Shown here piece by piece: positions 16,550-26,357 of a DNA stretch of 57,193 nucleotides. Where the stretch lies: NCBI GenBank assembly GCA_017467895.1, contig JAFUKB010000010.1, positions 1 to 57,193 on the forward strand, given 5' to 3'. The notes under the pieces were generated by a model, which was not told the DNA's origin, did no database searches, and worked only from the letters and a program-made list of their open reading frames with translations. Positions within the stretch are counted from its first letter, which is position 1. The number at the start of each line of letters is the position of its first letter. A program made the position numbers and the translations under genes. Origin of the DNA: Clostridia bacterium (GTDB lineage Bacteria; Bacillota; Clostridia; Christensenellales; UBA1242).

Positions 16550-16887
16550 CAAAATAACCAGCAACGGTTAAGACAGCATGATGGGTAAGTTAAAACAAAT
16601 TTAAGACACACATAAAAATTTGCACACAAAACTAATTATGCCCATCAAAAAAAGAAGCCAAAATGTGGTCAAGCAAAAAAGTTTTTGTAATTGTTAAAAA
16701 TTGTTTGACAACTTCGCGGGGGGGGGTACACTTAAATAGAAAAATAAAAATAGGAGAATAACATGAAAAACAAATTTGGATTGTGGTTCAACATTGTAAC
16801 CATCTGCCTATGCGTGTGCGCAATAGCCATAGGTGTTTACTCAGCAACCACAGCAAACCTAAACGCCAGTGGTAAACTAGGCTTTAC
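16550..16887 (+). repeat. Shared upstream and 5' coding block of the paralogous cassettes, copy 1
   Basis: Aligns with ~24520-24858; the first 125 coding nt differ at 6 positions. Confidence 0.9.
16705..16732 (+). promoter_or_regulatory. SigA promoter with poly-G9 spacer tract (putative phase-variable)
   Basis: TTGACA (16705-10), acttcgc, G9 (16718-26), TACACT (16727-32); spacer 16 bp. Confidence 0.85.
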
Positions 16888-18199
16888 AGCCCATGGCTGT
16901 GATGTTGATGTAAGTGGCACAATAGTAGGCCACGCAGCAGGTAACACCGCAGATGGCTTGCCAGTAACCGCGCCAGAGAGTTTGGGGGCAACAGTAGAGG
17001 TGCGTAGTGATACAAAAACACTCGACTTAGGCTCACGCTACTTTACAGACATGGCATCAACCGATGGCAGTGCAGAAGATATTGTTGTTACACTCACAGT
17101 AACAAATAAATCAAAATTTGATATAACTGCCGAGATAACTGGTACAACAGTTGCAGAAAATACAGCAATATCAATAACTGCGACACCAGAAAGCCAAATA
17201 ATTGCACAAAACGAAAGTGCAACGGTAACAATTACATTAACGCTAACCAGCACGGCAAGTAACATTGCAATGCCAAGCGCAGATAATGTAAGCATTGATA
17301 TGGAGTTTAATAAGTTTGTAGAAGAAGAATTTCCATTTTATGTAATATCAGAAGCAAATACTGACGAAAAGTTTAACTACTACGGGTATTTAGCAACAAC
17401 GATGGGGCATGCAGTAGAAGAATGTGATAGAACAACCTCGGATCTAGAATGGATTGCATTTGCAGTTCGTGGCACAGGAACCGAGGAAACAGGATTTACA
17501 ACAAAACCAGACTTTATTTCTACACATGAAGCAGAAAACCTAGAAGATGGGGAACAAGTTTATAGTCTGTCAATCACGGGAGCAACCCCTGCAGAAACAT
17601 GGTATAGTCTAAACGGCGTAGATATGACCAATGTAGACTACTCAGGCTATACTTTCTGGTTTATACAACGCTATACAACTATAGGATATTATAGTTTTAA
17701 TGATGACTGGACTGAATATGCTGAGGGCACTCCATTTAACCACTCAGCCGATTTAATGAATAATTATCAAGGAAGTGACATGCAGCAACTCTTGTCAGAA
17801 ACAAGCATGTATATATCGATGACAGGTATAGCAGATTCATATGTTTACGACAGGGCAAAAGCAAGAACAGTAAACGAAACAGATGCGGGGTTAAGTTATG
17901 GTAGTGGCTCTCAAGTGACAACATTTACATCAAAACTATGGCTATTGAATCAAAAAGAATTAGGCTTGTTGAACGGGGACGAAACAATTTATGATAATAC
18001 ATACTCAGAACCAGTAAAGGCATACGGTATAGGGAATGCTACTGGCGATGCCGATGGTAATGGGGCTTTTTGGTGGTTGCGTTCGCCTGACCAAAATATC
18101 GCTCACTATGTGCACTATGTGTACCACGGTGGTTATTTGGGTTCGACCTCTGTGGATGGCAACGGTGGCTTTCGCGCGGCTTTCCAAATAACAATTTAA
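16763..18199 (+). CDS. Exported/surface protein with C-terminal DUF6273/CLec-like (DGR-target-type) domain
   Basis: N-terminal hydrophobic signal ending AIGVYSA and a Thr-rich beta module; then YQGSDM...KLWLLNQKE...WWLRSP...GFRAAFQITI. Confidence 0.8.
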   Translation: MKNKFGLWFNIVTICLCVCAIAIGVYSATTANLNASGKLGFTAHGCDVDVSGTIVGHAAGNTADGLPVTAPESLGATVEVRSDTKTLDLGSRYFTDMASTDGSAEDIVVTLTVTNKSKFDITAEITGTTVAENTAISITATPESQIIAQNESATVTITLTLTSTASNIAMPSADNVSIDMEFNKFVEEEFPFYVISEANTDEKFNYYGYLATTMGHAVEECDRTTSDLEWIAFAVRGTGTEETGFTTKPDFISTHEAENLEDGEQVYSLSITGATPAETWYSLNGVDMTNVDYSGYTFWFIQRYTTIGYYSFNDDWTEYAEGTPFNHSADLMNNYQGSDMQQLLSETSMYISMTGIADSYVYDRAKARTVNETDAGLSYGSGSQVTTFTSKLWLLNQKELGLLNGDETIYDNTYSEPVKAYGIGNATGDADGNGAFWWLRSPDQNIAHYVHYVYHGGYLGSTSVDGNGGFRAAFQITI

Positions 18200-18217
18200 A
18201 ACAAATATAATGATGAG

Positions 18218-18261
18218 TAAGAAAACACTCGTTGCATGCGCGTTATTCTTGCATTCTTAAA
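18218..18261 (-). repeat. 44-bp dispersed intergenic repeat, copy 2
   Basis: Inverted copy of 8618-8661 (5 mismatches). Confidence 0.8.
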
Positions 18262-18262
18262 T

Positions 18263-18302
18263 AAAAACCAAGACTTTTTAAAATTTAAGTCTTGGTTTTT
18301 TT
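18263..18302. terminator. Intrinsic terminator (bidirectional)
   Basis: 14-bp inverted repeat aaaaaccaagactt/aagtcttggttttt. Confidence 0.8.
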
Positions 18303-18335
18303 GTTCTATCATATTTCAAATAAATATTTATCAAT

Positions 18336-18561
18336 TAAAAGAAAAAACACGGGCAAAAGGCGAAGAAAAGTGCTTGCAATTTTCAAGCCCCAAAGCCCGA
18401 TGAAAAAGATATAATAATCATATTTCTTCGGAGAGGGGGCTTCGCAAGAGAGTACCGACCGAGTTGAGAGAAAACGAAACTCGCGTATGGTCGGTAAAAG
18501 AAAAAACACGGGCAAAAGGCGAAGAAAAGTGCTTGCAATTTTCAAGCCCCAAAGCCCGATG
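18336..18561. repeat. Perfect 67-bp direct repeat pair (18336-18402 and 18495-18561) with a 92-bp structured spacer
   Basis: taaaagaaaaaacacgggc...caaagcccgatg is identical in both copies; lies 9 nt from the tRNA 3' end. Confidence 0.92.
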
Positions 18562-18570
18562 TTTTTTCTG

Positions 18571-18658
18571 TGGTGCGACTAACAAGACTCGAACTTGCAC
18601 GAGCATTAAAGCCACAAGCGTCTGAAACTTGCGCGTCTACCAATTCCGCCATAGTCGC
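18571..18658 (-). tRNA. tRNA-Leu (CAG)
   Basis: 88-nt cloverleaf GCGACTA...TAGTCGC-ACCA; anticodon loop TTCAGAC, long variable arm, T-loop TTCGAGT; promoter TTGCGT-17-TACAAT. Confidence 0.97.
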
Positions 18659-18712
18659 ATATATGGCATATTGTAGTATATTTTTTTTAAAAACGCAAGT
18701 GTGTTTTGCTTG

Positions 18713-19279
18713 TTAGCGTCTATAGTTGTTTAATAAATTTTTAATAAGTGTAAGTTCTGCAGTGTTTTTAATTATTTGTTCGTTTATTTGTTGCTTTAAT
18801 TTTGGGCAAATGTCATAGCCTAGAGCATTTTTTGCCAAATTAATTCCGCCTTCATGGTGATATATTAATGCTTGCAAATATAAAGCGTTTAGGTTATTGT
18901 TTGCCGAAATTGAATTTAGTTTTGTAATCATGTTGGTGATAATCTCAATGGCTTTGCGCTGATACAGGTTTACATCGCGCTCGCTGTTCGTATGGCATGT
19001 ACATTCGTCTATAATTGACCTTAAATATTCCATTGAGGCATTTTGATTTTCAATAATTGCTTTTGCGAGGGTTTCAATATCTACATCTGTTGTATATTTT
19101 AAAATGTTTTCACTTAAACTTATTGCTCCCTCTTTATGAGGAAGAATTTGCTGTATGTAGGTTTGCGAAATGCTGTTGCAGGGTTCAATGGCAAACATTT
19201 GGTTCTTCATGTTGTCAACAATTTGATAATATAAATCTAAATATTCTTTGCTATTGTCACTAAGTTTTTTTATTAACAT
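18713..19279 (-). CDS. DUF305 (ferritin-like) domain protein
   Basis: Twin motifs PHKEGAI...LAKAIIENQ and YHHEGGINLAK. Confidence 0.75.
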   Translation of the reverse strand: MLIKKLSDNSKEYLDLYYQIVDNMKNQMFAIEPCNSISQTYIQQILPHKEGAISLSENILKYTTDVDIETLAKAIIENQNASMEYLRSIIDECTCHTNSERDVNLYQRKAIEIITNMITKLNSISANNNLNALYLQALIYHHEGGINLAKNALGYDICPKLKQQINEQIIKNTAELTLIKNLLNNYRR

Positions 19280-19461
19280 AAAATATCCTCCATTTTGATT
19301 ATTATGCTGGTTGAATGTTTTTTGTTAATTTAAAATTGTTTTTTGAAATTATATTTGTTTAAAATGTAATTATTATATTTTTTTGTAAGTAAGTTTTGTA
19401 AGTGATTGAAAGGTTGCAAATTGTTATTTTAATTTGCTATAATTATTAAAAAAGGTTGGTT

Positions 19462-20115
19462 ATGTTTAAAAGATTTAGACAAATAAGAAAATTAAATAAC
19501 TCAAAACTTGTAGATGATGAGGTTTATGAAAAAGATGCTAATGGGCGAGGCATAATTGATGTTGGGGCTGAAAATTACGAAGACATTTTTTCGTATTATG
19601 ACCTTAACAATACAAATGTGTTAGATTGGGAATTTGAAGAGTTTTTAGATGCAAAAGCCGATGCAATTCCAATGTCGGAAGAACTTGCTCTTCATTTTCA
19701 TGTTAAAGATGCAACTGAACAAAAGTGCGAAGAAATTGACAAAGCGATTAAAGATAACTATAAACGCAAACTAAAAGCAATAAACAGGCAAATGCATAGA
19801 AACACAATGTTTTCAATTTATATGCTAATTTTGGCAGTTGTGGCTTTTGCAATTTATATTCCACTTGCAATGTCAAATGTTCACTTTGCTATTGTAGAGG
19901 TGTTTGATATTGTTGCTTGGGTGTTTGTTTGGGAAGCGGTTGATAATCATTTTTTAACAAGGCGCAATTTGCAAAAGGAAAGGTTAAAAAAATATCGCTT
20001 TATTAGAGCAGATATAGAGGTGTTGGAATATAAACGCAAATCTAACACGGTTAAATCAAAACAATACGGAATTAAAAAGGTTAAAGAAAACAATGCAAAT
20101 AGAACTCAAAAATGA
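19462..20115 (+). CDS. Hypothetical membrane protein (2 TM)
   Basis: Two hydrophobic helices ending IVAWVFVWEAVD; overlaps the next gene. Start could be 19456 or 19462. Confidence 0.7.
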   Translation: MFKRFRQIRKLNNSKLVDDEVYEKDANGRGIIDVGAENYEDIFSYYDLNNTNVLDWEFEEFLDAKADAIPMSEELALHFHVKDATEQKCEEIDKAIKDNYKRKLKAINRQMHRNTMFSIYMLILAVVAFAIYIPLAMSNVHFAIVEVFDIVAWVFVWEAVDNHFLTRRNLQKERLKKYRFIRADIEVLEYKRKSNTVKSKQYGIKKVKENNANRTQK

Positions 20116-20764
20116 TGAAAAAAAAGTTAAGACAATAATTGATTACTATATTTTAACGAACAAACTAAAAGATTTGGTTCGCACCGGCTGGAAACGCTGG
20201 GGTGTTAAGCGTGAAAGGGTGGAATCTGTTGCTGAACATATTTATGGCACTTGCATGCTTGCTGTTGCTATTTGGTCAGAAACCTTGCCAGAGGTTAACA
20301 TTAGCGAAGTTATTTTAATGCTTGCCCTTCATGAAACTGAAGAAAATATAATTAGCGACATAACCCCATACGACAGTGAAGAAAAACAAAAACTAAAGCA
20401 ATCGGGCGAAAAAGCGGTTAAAGCCATATTTAAAAATTTGGTGGCAAAAGATGTATATTTTAAACTTGTGCACGATTTTGATACGCTTGCAACCCCTGAG
20501 GCGATTTTTGCGCGCAAGTGTGATAAACTAGAAAGCGATTTGCAAGCAAGGCTGTATAGCGATGAGGGCGTTTTGCTTTATGAAAATGCTGATGAAATAA
20601 AAAATCATGAACAAATAGTTGAGTGGCACAATCAAGGAATAACCGATGTTGCTGACTATTTTGTGCTTGCAGATAGGCATAATTATGAAGATGGAGATAT
20701 ATTTTTTAAAATAAGCAAATATATTGAGGGCAAAAAAATAATAAAAAGTAAAAAGGGAAAATAA
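20093..20764 (+). CDS. HD-domain hydrolase (HD_3/5'-deoxynucleotidase-like)
   Basis: Motifs LKDLVRTGW, ESVAEH, LALHE, DITP and CDKLE. Confidence 0.88.
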   Translation: MQIELKNDEKKVKTIIDYYILTNKLKDLVRTGWKRWGVKRERVESVAEHIYGTCMLAVAIWSETLPEVNISEVILMLALHETEENIISDITPYDSEEKQKLKQSGEKAVKAIFKNLVAKDVYFKLVHDFDTLATPEAIFARKCDKLESDLQARLYSDEGVLLYENADEIKNHEQIVEWHNQGITDVADYFVLADRHNYEDGDIFFKISKYIEGKKIIKSKKGK

Positions 20765-21496
20765 ATGCAAAACATATTGTTTGGTGTGTCATATTTGGGG
20801 ACTAATTACGCAGGTTGGCAAAAACAAGACAATGCACTCTCTATTCAAGAGGTTATTGAAAATGCTTTTGAACAAATATGTAACAAAAAGGTAGAGATTT
20901 TTGCAAGTGGGCGCACTGATGCTGGTGTGCATGCATATGAGCAATGCTTTAATGCACAGGTTAACTTTCAACCAGTTTCAAAATTGCCACAAGCCTTAAA
21001 CTCAAAATTGCCACAAGATATAAGAATTTTGTGGGCAAAGCCGGTGGGAAACGATTTCCACGCAAGATTTTCGGCACATAAAAAAACATATATTTATAGG
21101 CTAAGCACTCAAGAAATAGAAAGCCCATTTGATTCTTTTCTTACAACATATGTTCCGCATAACTTAAATTTTAAAGCAATGCAACAGGCATGTGAGCATT
21201 TTTTGGGAGAACATAATTTTAAATCATTTTGCTCAGCACATACCACAGCAAAAGATTTTATTAGAACAATATATAGTTTAAATATTAACAAAACAGATAA
21301 TGTTTATGAGTTCGAAATATGCGGGAATGGCTTTTTGTATAACATGGTTAGAATAATTGTTGGAACACTTGTTGAGGTAGGCAGGGGCAAAATTAAACCC
21401 GAACAAATTGCAGACATTTTTGCAAAACAAGATAGAAAATTTGCAGGAAAAACTATGCCCGCAAAAGCACTCATATTAAAAAAAGTTGACTACTAA
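20765..21496 (+). CDS. truA: tRNA pseudouridine(38-40) synthase
   Basis: Motifs YLGTNYAGWQKQ, SGRTDAGVHA, FHARFSA and GFLYNMVRIIVG. Confidence 0.97.
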   Translation: MQNILFGVSYLGTNYAGWQKQDNALSIQEVIENAFEQICNKKVEIFASGRTDAGVHAYEQCFNAQVNFQPVSKLPQALNSKLPQDIRILWAKPVGNDFHARFSAHKKTYIYRLSTQEIESPFDSFLTTYVPHNLNFKAMQQACEHFLGEHNFKSFCSAHTTAKDFIRTIYSLNINKTDNVYEFEICGNGFLYNMVRIIVGTLVEVGRGKIKPEQIADIFAKQDRKFAGKTMPAKALILKKVDY

Positions 21497-21564
21497 TAGA
21501 TTATTTGTTGACTAAAACTTTTTTAATGTATTAAAATAAGTCTAAAAGGTAGGAGTAAAATCTC

Positions 21565-22203
21565 GTGAGAAAACTTAAATTAATTACAACTTGTGCTTCA
21601 CTTGTGCTGATGGTTGCCTTTATGGCTTTTGGCGTTTATGCATTGCAATCAGCAACCATGACGGTTAGTGGCACAGTTTCATATCAATGTACTAATGTTG
21701 CAGTTAAGGTTACTTATGGCCTTGTTGGTGGCACAACTTATGGTCCTTTTATTAGCCAAGAATCTGACCCAATTTCATGGAAAGATGAAAATGGCAATGC
21801 AGTTACATTCACAAACGGCGCTTTTGATGGCAAACTTCTTCCAGATGTTGCTTTTACGGAAGCAAACTTAACATGCACATATTTTATTACTGTTGAAAGT
21901 TTGCACGGCATGGCTATTGGCTTAAACTTTGGTTATAAATGGGCAAACACCGTTGGCAATGCAATCTCGGCGTCGGCAAAAGTTTATATTGGCGATGTTA
22001 ACAGCACGCAAGAAGCAACTGTTGAATTTAATCCAACAACTGGTATTGCAACGGCATATGAACTAGGTGCAAAAGCAACCCAAACATTAAAAGTCACTTT
22101 AACATTGGGTTCTACTAAATTAGATAATAAAGCGTCTGGCAATTTCCAGATGGCAATGGCGTCGGCTGTTCAGTTGACCGATGTGCCTGCAATATCTTTT
22201 TAG
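21565..22203 (+). CDS. Exported beta-rich protein; N-terminus resembles the cassette genes
   Basis: GTG start with AGGAG; AFGVYALQSATMTVSGTVSY resembles AIGVYSATTANLNASGKLGF. Confidence 0.7.
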   Translation: MRKLKLITTCASLVLMVAFMAFGVYALQSATMTVSGTVSYQCTNVAVKVTYGLVGGTTYGPFISQESDPISWKDENGNAVTFTNGAFDGKLLPDVAFTEANLTCTYFITVESLHGMAIGLNFGYKWANTVGNAISASAKVYIGDVNSTQEATVEFNPTTGIATAYELGAKATQTLKVTLTLGSTKLDNKASGNFQMAMASAVQLTDVPAISF

Positions 22204-22204
22204 T

Positions 22205-22894
22205 CTAGTCAAAATATTCTAAAACCCCAAGAAGTATGCTGTAGCATACTTCTTTTTTGTACTCTTCACTAATAAGCAATGCTTCTTCGTCAGCGTTGGA
22301 TAAATAACCGCATTCAACCAAAACCGATGGGCATTTTACAGCATTTAAAACATAGTAATCGCCAACAGAGGTTGCTTTTCGTGCTTGGTTTAAATATTTA
22401 ATAAAGTATTTTTGAATGTTGTCCGCAAGTGTTTTGCTGGGCTCGTCACTTTCGCCATAAAACACTTGTGCGCCTCGAGCATTGCCATTAAAACTGTTCA
22501 TGTGTAGTGAAATGACAAAATCAGTGTTGGCGTTTTCTATTAACTCTTTGCGCTTTTGCATATCGTCCTTTTTTTTGTTGGTTGCAAATGGGCTGTAAAG
22601 ACCACCACTTGTGGTGCGTGTCATTATAACATCAAAACCAAACTCTTGCATTAAATCGCGCAAGGTTAGAGCATAGTCCAAATTTAATTCCGACTCAATA
22701 ACCCCAGTAGAAATTCCAACGCTTCCGCCGTCAATGCCACCATGCCCAGCATCAATAACAACCGTGTATTGTGCCTTGGGTGAGATTGCAGTTGCAAGAG
22801 ATGGTATAAGTGGTACACATGCCAAGATTAAAAATAAAATAAGTCCGATTAAAATACTTTTTTTGTTAATTACAATGTAATTTATTTTTTTCAT
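22205..22894 (-). CDS. cwlD: N-acetylmuramoyl-L-alanine amidase (CwlD-like)
   Basis: N-terminal TM; motifs IDAGHGGIDGG, ESELNL, KKDDMQKR, SLHMNS and LVECGYLSN. Confidence 0.8.
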   Translation of the reverse strand: MKKINYIVINKKSILIGLILFLILACVPLIPSLATAISPKAQYTVVIDAGHGGIDGGSVGISTGVIESELNLDYALTLRDLMQEFGFDVIMTRTTSGGLYSPFATNKKKDDMQKRKELIENANTDFVISLHMNSFNGNARGAQVFYGESDEPSKTLADNIQKYFIKYLNQARKATSVGDYYVLNAVKCPSVLVECGYLSNADEEALLISEEYKKEVCYSILLGVLEYFD

Positions 22895-22977
22895 AAAATA
22901 TATATATGTTTTAAAGTAATTAATATGAAGATTTTATGATAACTTTTTCTTCCATTTAAAAGATACAAATTTAAAGT

Positions 22978-23013
22978 AAAAAGCCATATGTCCAATTCAA
23001 ACGGATATATGGC
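22978..23013. terminator. Intrinsic terminator
   Basis: Stem gccatatgtcc/ggatatatggc flanked by A/T runs. Confidence 0.6.
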
Positions 23014-23064
23014 AATTTTTTTAGAATACGATACAGTTATTATTCAGTGTTTTTATATGACTTT

Positions 23065-24387
23065 TTAACGGCTGTGCTGATTCATACGCGCCACTGCACG
23101 GCTTTTGCTTTCACTTAAAATGTGAGAAGGAATAGGTGCCTGATGAGATATGTTTTTTTCGTTGTAAGAAAGCGTGTGGTCTTTGCTTATTTCTGCCTTG
23201 CTAAGGAGCAAATATGGCAAAGAGTGGTCGCCACGCTGATAAGAGCAGGCGTCCCAACAAGGGTCGCAGTAGTAAATTCCGCCGGGTCTGTCAATTCTGC
23301 AAATTGAATGATAGCCTGTTTGTGGAAGAGTTATAAAGGTATATTCACTGTCAGTTGAGGCTTCGCTCATGTGGAGAGTGTCTTCTCCTGCAATGCAAGA
23401 TGTGTTTGAGGTGTGAATTCCTTTTAGTGCAAGCATATATTGCATGGCACGAGTGTACCCCTCGCACACACAACAGTTATACATAAATGCATTATAAGTG
23501 CCGTTTGCACCTCGCGCAGGCCCTAAAATAATTCCACCTTCAGATTTTTGCCCACGCAAGTTAGACTCAAGTGCATCATAGTTATATTTAACATTTTTTG
23601 CAAGCCAAGCATCAACCATGGCAACCGTGTCAAGTTCGGTTAGCCCCTTGCAATGCGTGGTAACCACTTCAAGTGCCTTTTTGTGAAGTTGTTGCATTTG
23701 CGCATTGGTAATTTTAATTGTGTTGTTTCCGCATGTTTCTGTCCAATGGCAAAAAAGGTCAATGTCTTTTAATTTGGCAAGAGCCTGCTCGTTTGTTGCG
23801 CCGGTTGCCGTTTTAAAACCAATAGCCTGAGGGAAAAGCAAAACATCTAAATTTGTTTCGTATAAGTTTGCATTTTCTGCAATAAATTGGTCAAAGTTTT
23901 TAATTGGCAACAAATTGTTTGAATCATAAAGTGTTAACGAGCCAATAGTTCTGTTTTGTGCAAGACCAATAACCTCGGTAAGTTCTTCGTTTCGGGTGAG
24001 TTCAAGGGTTTCAAGTTTGCTCATGCGAGAAATGTCCAAAGTTGTTATAAGCCTTTGATTGTTAATGGTTAAGTGTTTTAAGTTGGATAACTTTTCTATT
24101 TCAAAAATGTCGCTATCTTTTATGCTTTGCAAATCTCTTGATGCTTTGTAACTTGTGTTGCCGGTGGTTACAATAGAAAGTGAGGTTAAGTTTCTTAAAT
24201 AAGATAACCCCTTTAAAGAACCAGAATGATTTTTTAAACTTAAGTGAGTAACTAAATCAAGTTCTTCTTGCGAAAAAGCCGTGTCAACAAGCCCATATCT
24301 TGCGCGCTTTGGCACGCCCTTTTTTTCTAATGCTTGCCAAACTAATGTAGACAGTTCCCAAGAAAGTTTAATTTTTTCTTCTGCCAT
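23065..24387 (-). CDS. Leucine-rich-repeat plus transglutaminase-like domain protein
   Basis: LRRs (LRNLTSLSI, LSNLKHLTI, MSKLETLEL); NVKYNYD, VCEGYTRAMQYML, HSI and YYCDPCWD give a Cys-His-Asp triad. Promoter TTGACA-17-TAAAAT. Confidence 0.8.
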   Translation of the reverse strand: MAEEKIKLSWELSTLVWQALEKKGVPKRARYGLVDTAFSQEELDLVTHLSLKNHSGSLKGLSYLRNLTSLSIVTTGNTSYKASRDLQSIKDSDIFEIEKLSNLKHLTINNQRLITTLDISRMSKLETLELTRNEELTEVIGLAQNRTIGSLTLYDSNNLLPIKNFDQFIAENANLYETNLDVLLFPQAIGFKTATGATNEQALAKLKDIDLFCHWTETCGNNTIKITNAQMQQLHKKALEVVTTHCKGLTELDTVAMVDAWLAKNVKYNYDALESNLRGQKSEGGIILGPARGANGTYNAFMYNCCVCEGYTRAMQYMLALKGIHTSNTSCIAGEDTLHMSEASTDSEYTFITLPQTGYHSICRIDRPGGIYYCDPCWDACSYQRGDHSLPYLLLSKAEISKDHTLSYNEKNISHQAPIPSHILSESKSRAVARMNQHSR

Positions 24388-24519
24388 AACCCCTCCAAAT
24401 ATATATGTATTTTAATATAAAGACTCTGATTTGTCAATGTGCGATAATAAGAGTCAAAAGATTACCTTTGTTCAATAAAAAATGAAATCATGTCATAAAA
24501 AATTGACTCACGACGGCAA

Positions 24520-24858
24520 AAATAATAACGAGCAACGGCAAAGAACAACCCTCACGAGCAAAAAGCAAATTTTAATTATACATAACAATTTGCATACAAA
24601 ACCAATTATGCTCATAAAAAAAAGAAGCCAAAATGTGGTCAAGTAAAAAAGTTTTTGCAATTGTTAAAAATCGTTTGACAACTTCGCGGGGGGGGGTACA
24701 CTTAAGTAGAAAAGTGAAAAAAGGAGAAAAAACATGAAAAAGAAATTTGGATTGTGGTTTAACATAGTAACCATCTGCCTATGCGTATGCGCAATAGCCA
24801 TAGGTGTTTACTCGGCAACCACAGCAAACTTAAACGCCAGTGGTAAACTAGGCTTTAC
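24520..24858 (+). repeat. Shared upstream and 5' coding block of the paralogous cassettes, copy 2
   Basis: Aligns with ~16550-16887. Confidence 0.9.
24675..24702 (+). promoter_or_regulatory. SigA promoter with poly-G9 spacer tract (putative phase-variable)
   Basis: TTGACA (24675-80), acttcgc, G9 (24688-96), TACACT (24697-702); identical to 16705-16732. Confidence 0.85.
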
Positions 24859-25978
24859 TGCTCACAACTGTAAGGCTGACATAACTGGCACAATTTATGG
24901 CCATGCAACGGGTAATTCTGCAGATGGATTGCCAGTTGCCGAGGCAGACGCAGAAACATTTGGTACAGTGTCGCTAGATGGCGACACAAAAAGCCTATCG
25001 CTTGGAGCAACTCGATACTTTACTGATATGGCGTCAACCGATGGCAGTGTAGCCCCTATTGTAATAACACTGGCAATAACAAACACATCAAAGTTTGATA
25101 TTGTGGCGAGCGTAACAAGCGCAACAGCAACAAGCCCAGTTGCAATAGAATCTCCAACAGAAGATGTCAAGATAACTCAAAACTCAACCGAAAGCCTAAC
25201 ATTTACATTGACACTAACAAGCACAGCAAATGGAGTAACACCAAGTTCGGATAATGTAAACATATCATTGCATTTAGAAAAGTATGTTTCACCATTCTAT
25301 GTTGCAGATAACAAACTGTTTGTAAACATGGGCACAGACCCAGACACAGGCAACCCAATCAGATGGTATGCAATAGCAAAAGACAATGCTGGTACATTTG
25401 AGACATTAAAATCAACTCAAGTTACAAGTGTGGAAGCAGGCACCTATGTGTTTATCTCAGAATATATTCTTGATTACAGTGATAGTAGTCCATGCATTGA
25501 ATTTAATTCCACAGCAACTTCAAGTAACAACTATGGAGCAAATTATGAAGGTTCAATAATCCAATCATTTGTAAATGGTAATGATGCTAATTCATTATAT
25601 ACTAAGTATAAACTAGGTAATGCTAAATATGCTGATGTATATGGAAATATATTGCCATATCGTTGGGGTGAAGAAGAAATTTCGGATTATATAACGAGTA
25701 GTAAAGTTACATGTCCGGCCAGTGAGAGGCAAACATTATGGCTTTTAAGTAATGCTGAATACATTTTGTGTTTTGGTGATGGTGATACATCTGGTGTGGC
25801 TAAAATGCTTAGTACTAATTTAAACAATAATTGGTGGTTACGTTCTCCGAATAGTTATGAATCTATGGGAGGCTATTGTGATGTCTGGTATGTAAAAGAT
25901 ACCGGAGGACTTGGTTACGAGCCTGTGCCGGGAGGTCGTTTCGGCGTGCGTCCTGCCTTCCAAATAACAATATCATAA
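24734..25978 (+). CDS. Exported/surface protein with C-terminal DUF6273/CLec-like domain; paralog of 16763-18199
   Basis: Near-identical N-terminus; YEGSII...TLWLLSNAE...WWLRSP...GVRPAFQITIS. Confidence 0.8.
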   Translation: MKKKFGLWFNIVTICLCVCAIAIGVYSATTANLNASGKLGFTAHNCKADITGTIYGHATGNSADGLPVAEADAETFGTVSLDGDTKSLSLGATRYFTDMASTDGSVAPIVITLAITNTSKFDIVASVTSATATSPVAIESPTEDVKITQNSTESLTFTLTLTSTANGVTPSSDNVNISLHLEKYVSPFYVADNKLFVNMGTDPDTGNPIRWYAIAKDNAGTFETLKSTQVTSVEAGTYVFISEYILDYSDSSPCIEFNSTATSSNNYGANYEGSIIQSFVNGNDANSLYTKYKLGNAKYADVYGNILPYRWGEEEISDYITSSKVTCPASERQTLWLLSNAEYILCFGDGDTSGVAKMLSTNLNNNWWLRSPNSYESMGGYCDVWYVKDTGGLGYEPVPGGRFGVRPAFQITIS

Positions 25979-26080: not shown

Positions 26081-26357
26081 ACTGTTGCCACAAGTTTGAA
26101 CAAGCCGAAGCAGTTGTGCCCAAACACGCAAATACTCCACCAAAGCCACCTTATGGCACATAACTCTTAAACTTAGTGTTGCTACCGTCAGGTTCTCACA
26201 CGGTTCGTAAAAGACTTATTGCATAAGACCTTAATTTCAACATATTTGTGCATAAGTTCGCAAAAGACGGATTGCCCTCAGCATGCGTTATCGACCCCGC
26301 GTATAGTAGATTGCGGGTTACAAGGAACTACTAACTCCCCGCCACAAAGGCAACAGC
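26081..26357 (-). ncRNA. ffs: Large bacterial SRP RNA (scRNA with Alu domain)
   Basis: 5' GCGGGGAG...CCTTGTAACCCGCAATC...GCGGGGTCGA Alu domain; helix 8 GTGAGAACC-TGAC-GGTAGCAAC; 5'/3' ends pair (CTGTTGCC/GGCAACAG); promoter TTGCAC-17-TATAAT. Confidence 0.9.

What the first reader, a model, noticed from the sequence alone, without database searches (positions are those of the whole stretch)
16550..25978. Candidate multilayer surface-variation system: phase-variable, modular, DGR-target-like adhesin cassettes
Seen: two genes 8 kb apart share ~200 bp of upstream sequence, an identical poly-G promoter and a near-identical N-terminal export segment. Both have the same Thr-rich module (RYFTDMASTDGS) and a CLec/DUF6273-like C-terminus ending in the same 14 nt (TTCCAAATAACAAT), but their middles are barely alignable. 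A third gene carries only the N-terminal-type module. Known: WWLRS...GxRP C-termini typify DGR targets, and promoter homopolymers give ON/OFF switching. Inference: a dispersed family of interchangeable ligand-binding tip proteins, chosen by slipped-strand switching and diversified by DGR retrohoming in trans and/or module swapping. I do not know this combination as a described system.
Basis: partly seen in the sequence, partly recalled or inferred. Interest (0 to 1): 0.85.

Follow-up and report, generated by a model that had tools for sequence, protein, structure and literature searches.

The report
Phase-variable lectin gene family, DGR-linked
The two genes belong to a family of about 30 exported lectin-like proteins in a small-genome gut bacterium; most carry a run of nine Gs inside their promoter, and about a third are rewritten by retroelements, so the cell surface can probably vary in several ways.

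Summary
Genes A (16763-18199) and B (24734-25978) share about 170 bp of upstream DNA, an identical promoter TTGACA-ACTTCGC-G9-TACACT, 43 of their first 44 residues, and a DUF6273 C-type-lectin-fold C-terminus.

They are not a pair. The 871-kb genome holds 19 such poly-G promoters (17 G9, 1 G10, 1 G8+A) and 28 DUF6273 gene ends. The family covers at least 4% of the assembly and lies at 29 of 96 contig ends. G/C runs of 6-7 are depleted (3 seen, about 37 expected) and G9 is enriched (20 seen, 0.2 expected). Three congeners use the same design, with G7-G10.

The genome has two textbook DGRs (RT, TR, adenine-only mismatches) that rewrite five family members, some of them remote. A third template, not assembled, is implied by five more.

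Neither window gene has a cognate TR. A carries a decayed VR-like scaffold; B has no DGR signature. Paralogues are mosaics with sharp breakpoints.

Tract-length switching at a single locus was not shown: only contigs were available, and no RNA data.

Verdict: a new variant that combines known mechanisms.

The parts
16595..16704 (+). Conserved block upstream of the gene A promoter, shared with gene B (24565-24674) and with many paralogues.
   Evidence: Alignment. blastn finds 80-95% identical copies on C8, C22, C24, C28, C30, C34, C40 and others.
16705..16732 (+). Gene A promoter: TTGACA, 16-nt spacer, TACACT. The G9 tract lies at 16718-16726.
16763..18199 (+). Gene A, 478 aa. Residues 5-30 form a hydrophobic helix (signal or anchor), 34-189 a beta-sandwich, and 188-478 a DUF6273 / C-type-lectin-fold domain.
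17036..17071 (+). RYFTDMASTDGS motif of gene A, inside the beta-sandwich.
17313..17345 (+). Mosaic breakpoint. Upstream of it, gene A is 92-95% identical in DNA to paralogues on C34 and C23. Downstream, that similarity ends.
   Evidence: Contig joints 17341/17344 -> 25304-25311 in three runs.
18056..18181 (+). VR-like segment of gene A. It has the NNC/NNT codon scaffold of the 'VR3' class, but 12 of 75 template-fixed columns are changed and no TR is found.
18182..18195 (+). Shared 14-mer TTCCAAATAACAAT, which encodes FQITI. It lies 3' of where TR/VR homology ends in the family.
21565..22203 (+). Gene C, 212 aa. It shares only the family's N-terminal 55 residues and has an ordinary promoter without a G tract.
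24565..24674 (+). Conserved block upstream of the gene B promoter.
24675..24702 (+). Gene B promoter, identical to that of gene A. The G9 tract lies at 24688-24696.
24734..25978 (+). Gene B, 414 aa, with the same architecture as A. Block 24719-24976 is 97% identical to C15 and block 25049-25564 is 91% identical to C41. The C-terminal 150 aa are unique.
25958..25971 (+). Second copy of the shared 14-mer.

Best explanation
SHOWN. Genes A and B are two members of a family of about 28-30 paralogues in an uncultured, small-genome gut bacterium of the Clostridia. Each protein has three parts: an N-terminal hydrophobic export/anchor helix, an Ig-like beta-sandwich, and a C-terminal DUF6273 domain with the C-type-lectin fold. 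Nineteen members, including A and B, are preceded by a near-identical promoter in which a G9 run fills most of the spacer between TTGACA and TACACT, giving a 16-nt spacer. One member has G10 (17 nt). Three sister species use the same design with different flanks and -10 boxes, and their tracts range from G7 to G10.

INFERRED. Slipped-strand mispairing in the G tract changes the spacer length, and with it the transcription of each gene independently (phase or 'volume' variation). A population would therefore display changing subsets of lectin-like surface proteins.

Two further layers act on the same family.
(i) SHOWN: two DGRs in the assembly rewrite the last ~120 nt of five members at template adenines. 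Five more members share a third, unassembled template.
(ii) SHOWN as a pattern, INFERRED as a process: paralogues exchange blocks by recombination at the conserved 5' block and at the end of the beta-sandwich.

In the window itself only the promoter layer and the mosaic layer are visible. Gene A carries a decayed VR-type scaffold and gene B carries none, so neither is a current DGR target of any template in the assembly.
For: Family and promoter:
- 9 exact and 19 relaxed promoter matches in the genome, and 0 of 40 relatives with this exact pattern.
- 30 DUF6273 matches, made up of 28 gene ends and 2 TRs.
- The family covers 34.8 kb, 4.0% of the assembly, and lies within 300 nt of 29 of 96 contig ends.

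Selection on tracts:
- G/C runs of 3-5 match expectation.
- Runs of 6 and 7 are depleted: 2 against 31.9, and 1 against 5.5.
- G9 is enriched: 20 against 0.2.
- The three non-promoter G9 runs include two in-frame coding tracts, one in a WecB-like epimerase gene and one in a large ORF. The organism therefore keeps poly-G at other loci of the contingency type.

Sister species:
- 50 of 66 family loci have a G>=6 tract within 330 nt upstream, and 40 of those 50 are G9.
- Lengths by genome: SIG415-type 27 G9, 1 G8, 2 G10. HGM11346-type 6 G9, 1 G8, 1 G7, 1 interrupted. HGM11367-type 6 G9, 2 G8, 1 G10, 1 G7.
- G9 gives a 16-nt spacer in all three promoter designs (read).

Fold:
- Model pLDDT 66.7.
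- The C-terminal domain matches the DUF6273 domain of 9qa6 at Z 14.8, 190 residues aligned, rmsd 3.6.

DGRs:
- RVT_1 matches at C44 and C30 and a bAvd-like ORF in DGR2 (27 bits, below the 40-bit cut-off).
- Mismatches at template adenines. TR1: 17 of 17, 25 of 27 and 15 of 17. TR2: 21 of 21 and 19 of 20.
- VR3 class of five genes: 75 invariant columns contain a single A. 46 of 51 variable columns lie at codon positions 1-2. The 126 nt just upstream have only 4 invariant columns.
- In congeners, TRs match poly-G-promoter genes L050, L039 and L043.

Mosaics: and the contig joints.
Against: - No length variation of the G tract at a single locus was seen. Only assembled contigs could be laid. They break in the repeated promoter region, and no indel at 16718-16726 or 24688-24696 is among the 12 indel rows shown (12 more were hidden).
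- The one clear orthologous promoter pair between two congeners has the same length, G10 against GGGAGGGGGG.
- The mode is G9 in about 80% or more of the tracts in three of the four genomes (6 of 10 in the fourth). This could equally mean a fixed, selected spacer.
- MutS is present in 40 of 40 relatives, so loss of mismatch repair cannot be invoked. Its absence from this 90%-complete genome is probably incompleteness.
- No RNA data exist, so which tract length is ON is unknown.
- Surface location rests only on the N-terminal helix and the fold. No sortase, lipobox or wall-binding signal was identified.
Confidence: 0.68

Rival explanations
1. The G9 run is a fixed structural part of a family promoter, for example a spacer of set length or a regulator site. 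It is conserved because the whole 5' block is homogenised by gene conversion. It does not act as a switch, and expression is controlled by ordinary regulators.
For: - G9 is the state in 17 of 19 promoters here and in 40 of 50 tract-bearing loci in relatives.
- No tract indel was seen in the contigs of four runs.
- The one orthologous pair has equal length.
- MutS is present in all 40 relatives.
- A subset of family genes without tracts sits next to divergent XRE-type regulators.
Against: - The tract is kept while its flanks and -10 box differ between paralogues and between species (ACTTCGC / ACGGCGC / ATTGGCT / ACGC; TACACT / TAGAAT / TATAAT).
- Lengths G7, G8 and G10 do occur.
- G6-G7 runs are about 12-fold depleted genome-wide, as expected if such runs are unstable enough to be harmful.
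- In-frame G9 tracts occur in unrelated genes.
Confidence: 0.22
2. Gene A, and less likely gene B, is a live DGR target of a template repeat that lies in the unassembled ~10% of the genome.
For: - Gene A keeps the frame, length (26 codons between WWLRSP and G-x-R) and NNY codon pattern of the VR3 class. 77% of its codons end in C/T, and only 1 of 26 residues cannot be reached from AAY codons.
- A third template certainly exists or existed and is missing from the assembly.
- The genome is 871 kb, against 1.0-1.7 Mb in congeners.
Against: - Gene A differs from the VR3 class at 12 of 75 columns that are invariant in five class members. Members left out one at a time differ at 1-7. Homing from that template would erase such differences.
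- Gene A's VR is at most 66% identical to any other member.
- Gene B has the lowest NNY fraction but one (0.61), and 5 of 31 residues (E, M, W, K, E) cannot be reached from AAY.
Confidence: 0.1
3. The genes are remnants of phage receptor-binding proteins (prophage cargo), not cellular surface proteins.
For: In the papers read here, DUF6273 is described mainly as a DGR-target domain of phage proteins (passages of PMC10743442 and PMC11792537).
Against: - About 30 copies are scattered among housekeeping genes. In this window they lie beside truA, an amidase, tRNA-Leu, SRP RNA and alaS.
- Each copy has its own promoter and an N-terminal export helix.
- Contigs with family genes show no phage structural genes in what was read.
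Confidence: 0.03

Closest known systems
Vlp variable lipoprotein family of Mycoplasma hyorhinis. The system is named in the reference list of PMC11868660. Its promoter poly(A) mechanism is recalled, not read here.
   Same: A small genome, a multigene surface-protein family, each gene with its own promoter, and a homopolymer in the -35/-10 spacer that would give independent, combinatorial switching.
   Different: Here the tract is poly-G, the proteins are lectin-fold rather than repeat lipoproteins, the host is a walled gut Clostridia lineage, and part of the family is also DGR-diversified.
Neisseria meningitidis porA / opc promoter-spacer poly-G / poly-C tracts (recalled; my literature search for them failed on a syntax error).
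   Same: A G/C homopolymer sets the spacer length, and one-base changes grade transcription.
   Different: Those are single genes, not a 19-promoter family. There is no retroelement layer.
Campylobacter / Helicobacter poly-G contingency loci (search listing only: PMC8355987, PMC2823697).
   Same: A low-GC genome with some tens of G8-G10 tracts and a mode near G9.
   Different: There the tracts are mostly intragenic and mismatch repair is absent (recalled). Here 19 of 25 tracts of G>=7 lie in promoter spacers, and MutS is present in all 40 relatives.
DGRs with C-type-lectin-fold targets: Bordetella phage Mtd, Treponema denticola TvpA (PDB 2y3c), and DUF6273 targets of Faecalibacterium phages and 'tentaclins' (passages).
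   Same: RT plus TR, adenine-specific mismatches, a VR at the C-terminal end of a CLec/DUF6273 domain, and more than one target per element.
   Different: Here the targets are cellular and belong to a ~30-member family. Three templates serve at least 10 dispersed genes, and some targets also carry a slippery promoter. The large survey read here states that it could not detect remote targets (PMC8144416, passage).
N-terminal DUF6273 domain of the Thomasclavelia ramosa IgA peptidase (PDB 9qa6; PMC12402451, passages).
   Same: Best structural match to the C-terminal domain of gene A (Z 14.8).
   Different: That domain is fused to an M64 peptidase on a sortase-anchored protein. No function of the domain is stated in the passages read.

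Membership tests
DUF6273 (Pfam PF19789), C-type-lectin fold | Profile match above the curated cut-off | tested here: met
   Gene A 38.9 bits and gene B 31.4 bits, against a cut-off of 23.5.
DUF6273 (Pfam PF19789), C-type-lectin fold | The fold matches solved DUF6273 / CLec domains | tested here: met
   Gene A residues 188-478 against 9qa6, Z 14.8. Lcl Z 7.4, TvpA Z 6.3, CEL-IV Z 5.3. The model has pLDDT of only 66.7.
DGR (for the genome) | A reverse transcriptase next to a template repeat | tested here: met
   RVT_1 at 75 and 70 bits, at C44:1698-2789 and C30:374-1450, with TRs at C44:1215-1332 and C30:1681-1795.
DGR (for the genome) | TR/VR pairs that differ almost only at template adenines | tested here: met
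   17 of 17, 25 of 27, 15 of 17, 21 of 21 and 19 of 20 mismatches at TR adenines.
DGR (for the genome) | Accessory Avd protein | tested here: inconclusive
   The DGR2 ORF C30:1852-2340 scores 27 bits for bAvd, below the 40-bit cut-off (E 7e-6). DGR1's contig ends before any such gene. A stand-alone PF05635 gene on C28 has no RT or TR nearby.
DGR target (genes A and B of the window) | A cognate TR in the genome that differs from the gene's 3' end at adenines | tested here: not met
   No such partner was found for either gene in the 871-kb assembly. The assembly is 90% complete.
DGR target (genes A and B of the window) | VR codon signature: NNY codons and A-free fixed positions shared with co-templated paralogues | tested here: inconclusive
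   Gene A has the scaffold, but 12 of 75 fixed columns are changed. Gene B has an NNY fraction of 0.61 and 5 of 31 unreachable residues.
Simple-sequence-repeat phase-variable promoter (contingency locus) | A homopolymer of 7 or more bases between the -35 and -10 boxes | tested here: met
   G9 at 16718-16726 and 24688-24696, within TTGACA-16 nt-TACACT.
Simple-sequence-repeat phase-variable promoter (contingency locus) | Tract length varies at one locus within a population or between strains | tested here: inconclusive
   Only contigs could be laid, and no tract indel is in the rows shown. Lengths differ among paralogues, G7-G10. The one orthologous pair has equal length.
Simple-sequence-repeat phase-variable promoter (contingency locus) | Expression changes with tract length | not testable with these tools
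TasA / camelysin (Peptidase_M73) fibres with a SipW-type signal | Profile match of the N-terminal domain, and a SipW-type peptidase in the genome | tested here: inconclusive
   No Pfam or NCBIfam hit. PF12389 has no match in the genome. sigpep_I_arch scores only 32 bits against a cut-off of 51.85. The Atlas features search gives a camelysin cluster at 0.90, which is a lead only.

The most novel reading that the evidence does not exclude
A genus of genome-reduced gut Clostridia runs a three-layer programmed repertoire on one lectin family.
- Each of ~20-30 genes has its own slippery G-tract promoter. The 17-nt spacer state (G10) is ON and the default G9 is low or OFF.
- Three or more DGR templates rewrite the binding tips of ten or more dispersed members in trans.
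- Recombination at conserved junctions reshuffles stalks and tips.

The layers may be coupled. Of the five DGR targets with a poly-G-type promoter, three have a 17-nt spacer: C22, plus L039 and L043, which are orthologues of each other. Across all promoters seen, only a few percent have that spacer. This would fit DGR diversification concentrating on the members that are switched on.
Probability: 0.2. Interest if true: 0.85.

Novelty: new variant of a known kind. Interest (0 to 1): 0.66.

Why it matters
Promoter-homopolymer switching and DGR hypermutation are each well known, but in my searches they are treated as separate strategies. The searches were: 'diversity-generating retroelement' with 'phase variation' (38 papers, 25 listed), with 'slipped-strand' (2 papers) and with 'contingency' (20 papers, 15 listed). 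I judged these by titles and abstracts only, and none described both mechanisms acting on one gene family.

Here both sit on one family that takes up at least 4% of a roughly 1-Mb genome in an uncultured commensal lineage of animal and human guts.

If the switch works, these bacteria control which lectin is shown, what it binds, and which stalk carries it. That would be a compact model for how very small genomes keep up with hosts, phages or partner cells.

There is also a practical point. This family causes nearly a third of the contig breaks in the assembly, and remote DGR targets of this kind are missed by contig-based surveys (PMC8144416, passage).

Tried and rejected
1. Loss of mismatch repair as the cause of slippage: rejected. 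MutS_V and the MutL domain were not found in this genome, but MutS is present in 40 of 40 relatives, including all 10 congeners. The absence here is probably incompleteness.

2. Read-level tract variation. The look-up of sequencing runs listed 15 runs, 13 of them holders, from 7 studies. All are kept as Logan contigs, and no RNA holder was listed. I laid X1, X3, X7 and X9 (4 of 15). Contigs break around the repeated promoters, and no G-tract indel is among the 12 indel rows shown, with 12 more hidden. X7 had no cover at 25568-25898. Nothing can be concluded about switching or expression.

3. Metagenome pattern scans. The exact promoter gave 0 hits. The relaxed pattern gave 10 contigs, all in unrelated contexts and none in this family.

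4. A third template repeat. A motif scan for WWLRSP-coding DNA, an AAC-codon-density scan and an all-VR blastn found only TR1 and TR2.

5. The PF05635 gene at C28:9582-9869. It lies beside recR/ybaB-like genes and has no RT or TR nearby, so it was not counted as part of a DGR.

6. A TasA/SipW fibre reading of the N-terminal module: no support, and only an Atlas lead at 0.90.

7. Foldseek against the PDB gave no match at E <= 0.001. The VIA-align wide search was used instead. For the N-terminal beta-sandwich only generic matches at Z about 7 came back.

8. Rfam on the long 5' leaders and on both DGR loci found no riboswitch or leader family. It found only the start of 23S rRNA on C44 and one sub-threshold sRNA hit.

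9. Orthologous promoter comparison between two congeners gave only one clear pair (98.2% over 705 nt), with equal tract length.

10. The 43-nt repeat downstream of gene A does not fold better than shuffles (z -0.9).

They might hold target lists that bear on the novelty claim. Complex prediction, the search for homologous proteins, the search of protein representatives and the second structure job were not used.

Full report
WHAT IS AT THE COORDINATES

The window has three forward-strand ORFs of interest: A at 16763-18199 (478 aa), C at 21565-22203 (212 aa) and B at 24734-25978 (414 aa). Between and around them lie ordinary genes:
- a DUF305 protein;
- an HD-type hydrolase-like ORF and a truA-like ORF (both named by eye from the translations; neither was scanned against a family library);
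- an Amidase_3 cell-wall amidase and an LRR/transglutaminase-like protein;
- tRNA-Leu at 18571-18658 and a large SRP RNA at 26083-26355;
- alaS, pth and mfd-like ORFs further on, also named by eye.

- The regions upstream of A and B align at 89% mean column identity.
- Both carry the identical 28-mer TTGACA-ACTTCGC-G9-TACACT.
- The first 44 residues differ once, and both contain RYFTDMASTDGS.
- Both end in a DUF6273 domain above Pfam's cut-off.
- The 14-mer TTCCAAATAACAAT occurs twice, with none expected.
- Gene C shares only the first 55 residues with the family.

IT IS A LARGE FAMILY, NOT A PAIR

The window is contig 1 of an 871-kb, 48-contig genome rated 90% complete.
- The exact promoter occurs 9 times (8 G9, 1 G10).
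- Allowing four free bases before GC, it occurs 19 times: 17 G9, one G10 on C22, and one G8 followed by A on C13. None of 40 relatives has this exact pattern.
- Pfam DUF6273 matches 30 places: 28 gene ends and two template repeats.
- Family DNA covers 34.8 kb, 4.0% of the assembly, and lies within 300 nt of 29 of the 96 contig ends. Many members are therefore split between contigs.
- A few members have no G tract and sit next to divergent XRE-type regulator genes.
- One member, C38, has the family N-terminus but a different 917-aa body.

THE TRACTS LOOK SELECTED

G/C runs of 3, 4 and 5 occur as often as base composition predicts. Runs of 6 and 7 are depleted (2 against 31.9, and 1 against 5.5). 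G9 is enriched 100-fold (20 against 0.2). This is the pattern expected if G runs of six or more are unstable enough to be purged except where instability is useful.

Of the 20 G9 runs, 17 are family promoters. Two of the other three are in-frame coding tracts, one in a WecB-like epimerase gene and one in a large ORF.

SISTER SPECIES USE THE SAME DESIGN

Relatives are titled as Clostridia, Clostridiales or Eubacteriales MAGs. The runs that hold the window's DNA are labelled animal gut metagenomes, some of them bovine.

DUF6273 is expanded in several congeners: 29, 29, 13 and 9 matches in G004, G005, G001 and G010. It is not expanded in most of the family or order. Five congeners hold many G>=8 runs.

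Of 66 family loci fetched from genome contigs, 50 have a G>=6 tract within 330 nt upstream, and 40 of those are G9. The rest are G7, G8 or G10, plus one interrupted GGGAGGGGGG.

The flanks differ between species:
- TTGACAAYYGGCT-Gn-TAGAAT in G005;
- TTGACAACGC-Gn-AGA/ATA-TATAAT in G001 and G010.

In each design G9 gives a 16-nt spacer and G10 gives 17. The tract is therefore conserved as a tract, and not merely as part of a copied block.

WHAT WAS NOT SHOWN

I could not show length change at one locus.
- Only assembled contigs were available, and they break in the promoter repeats. No tract indel is in the rows shown.
- No RNA run was listed.
- The single clear orthologous promoter pair between two congeners has equal length.
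- Loss of mismatch repair cannot be invoked.

THE PROTEINS

An AlphaFold model of A was built on a 13-sequence family alignment: 3 sequences from this genome, 7 from G005 and 3 from G001. It has mean pLDDT 66.7. It shows a helix at residues 5-30, a beta-sandwich at 34-189 (pLDDT about 80) and a C-terminal domain.

Foldseek found nothing at E <= 0.001. The wide structural search matched residues 188-478 to the DUF6273 N-terminal domain of the T. ramosa IgA peptidase (Z 14.8, 190 residues aligned, rmsd 3.6). Below that came other lectin-fold domains: Legionella Lcl (7.4), Treponema TvpA (6.3), PvdO and CEL-IV.

The beta-sandwich gave only generic matches at Z about 7. A TasA/camelysin reading was considered but found no support.

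Papers read in passages describe DUF6273 as a C-type-lectin-like domain that DGRs diversify in phage proteins (PMC10743442 and PMC11792537).

DGRs ARE PRESENT AND ACT ON THE FAMILY

Two RVT_1 genes exist.

DGR1, on C44, has:
- a target gene ending at 823;
- a TR at 1215-1332 on the same strand;
- the RT on the opposite strand (1698-2789);
- the start of 23S rRNA at the contig end.

Its TR matches three VRs: C44:680-797, C21:683-800 and C35:4335-4454. The mismatches fall at template adenines in 17 of 17, 25 of 27 and 15 of 17 cases.

DGR2, on C30, is bAvd-like ORF, then TR (1681-1795), then RT (374-1450). It matches C30:41-155 (21 of 21) and C22:2477-2591 (19 of 20).

The C30 target continues from contig C36 through a 28-nt end overlap, and it has an ordinary promoter. 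The C22 target has the genome's only G10 promoter, and the C35 target has a G9 promoter. Both lie kilobases from any RT on their contigs. Remote (trans) targeting of poly-G-promoter genes is therefore real in this genome.

Both TRs encode runs of Asn codons, and their homology with the VRs ends at GGCGTGCGTCCGG / GGCGCGCGCCCTG.

In congeners, TR-like loci likewise match family genes that have poly-G-type promoters (L050, L039, L043) at 76-90% template-adenine mismatches.

A THIRD, UNASSEMBLED TEMPLATE

Five genes (C3, C27, C42, C5:43675, C9) share a 126-nt 3' segment with these properties:
- 75 columns are invariant, and only one of them holds an A;
- 46 of 51 variable columns are at codon positions 1-2;
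- the 126 nt just upstream share only 4 invariant columns.

I left C39 (one extra codon) and C5:610 (looser fit) out of that count. No matching TR is in the assembly.

THE WINDOW GENES AND THE DGRs

Gene A has the same length and codon scaffold as this third class. However, it differs at 12 of the 75 fixed columns, whereas class members left out one at a time differ at 1-7. It is at most 66% identical to any other VR. I read it as a former or diverged target.

Gene B has the second-lowest NNY fraction (0.61). Five of its 31 residues cannot be reached from AAY codons. Apart from a 25-nt WWLRSP-coding match, it has no similarity to either TR.

MOSAICS

Gene A is 95% identical in DNA to C34 and 92% to C23 across 16862-17319, and then the similarity stops. 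Gene B is 97% identical to C15 over 24719-24976 and 91% to C41 over 25049-25564, and then diverges. Contigs from three runs join A near 17341-17344 to B-like sequence near 25304-25311. This fits paralogues built from the same blocks.

CONCLUSION

Its promoter layer is strongly suggested but not demonstrated. Its DGR layer is demonstrated for the family but not for the two window genes. The module-swapping layer is supported as a pattern.

Each mechanism is known. Their combination on one family, in a ~1-Mb gut Clostridia genome, was not described in any paper my searches returned, judged from titles and abstracts only.

Noticed in passing
G000 C46:6380-6388 and C20:33520-33528: In-frame G9 tracts inside coding regions. 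One is in a UDP-GlcNAc 2-epimerase (WecB)-like gene and one in a large ORF. They are candidates for translational phase variation of surface glycan synthesis.
   Followed up: partly
L032 (G001:C3, about 57360-57367): A G9 tract encodes the GGG of motif I (F-x-G-x-G) of a C5 DNA methyltransferase-like ORF in a congener. It is a possible phase-variable methyltransferase (phasevarion).
   Followed up: no
window 18218-18260: A 43-nt repeat just downstream of gene A has 45 blastn hits on 24 contigs, with five in tandem on C37. It often follows family genes. It does not fold better than shuffles (z -0.9).
   Followed up: partly
window 18372-18388, 18531-18547 and 18571-18658: tRNA-Leu(CAG) lies on the minus strand. 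Upstream of it a short stem-loop sequence is duplicated about 160 bp apart, which may be a partial duplication or an old integration scar.
   Followed up: no
window 23065-24387 (-): A 440-aa protein with N-terminal leucine-rich repeats and a weak match to a Mycoplasma 'MAG6410 family transglutaminase-related lipoprotein' model (24 bits, far below the cut-off). It lies between the two family genes.
   Followed up: no
G000 C36:2400-2750, C30:6450-6740, C5:42000-42330: Family members without a G tract have ordinary promoters and a divergently oriented XRE-type helix-turn-helix gene. This looks like a second regulatory class within the family.
   Followed up: partly
G000 C38:7749-10502: A 917-aa protein has the family promoter (G9) and N-terminal module, but a different, non-DUF6273 C-terminal body.
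   Followed up: no
G000 C44:3261-3338: DGR1 lies directly beside the start of a 23S rRNA gene. Together with the family gene on the other side, this explains why its contig is only 3.3 kb long.
   Followed up: no
L104, L106, L108, L111, L112, L113 (metagenome contigs): The promoter form TTGACAA-N4-GC-G9-TACACT also occurs in unrelated metagenome contigs, twice upstream of a signal-peptide protein. G9 in a 16-nt spacer may be a recurrent design beyond this genus.
   Followed up: no
L039 / L043 (G001 and G010 orthologues), G000 C22: Three of the five DGR targets with a poly-G-type promoter have a 17-nt spacer, from G10 or from an interrupted GGGAGGGGGG. A sixth target, the C36/C30 gene, has no tract. 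Among all promoters seen, 17-nt spacers are rare. The numbers are small, and two of the three are orthologues.
   Followed up: partly
G000 C20:1-876 and C30:6741-8066: Two members of the '31-residue' VR length class have 87% NNY codons. This hints at a further, fourth template class.
   Followed up: no
L065 (G010): A G7 run sits 4 nt before the start codon of a family gene, in the place of the ribosome-binding site and not in the promoter spacer.
   Followed up: no
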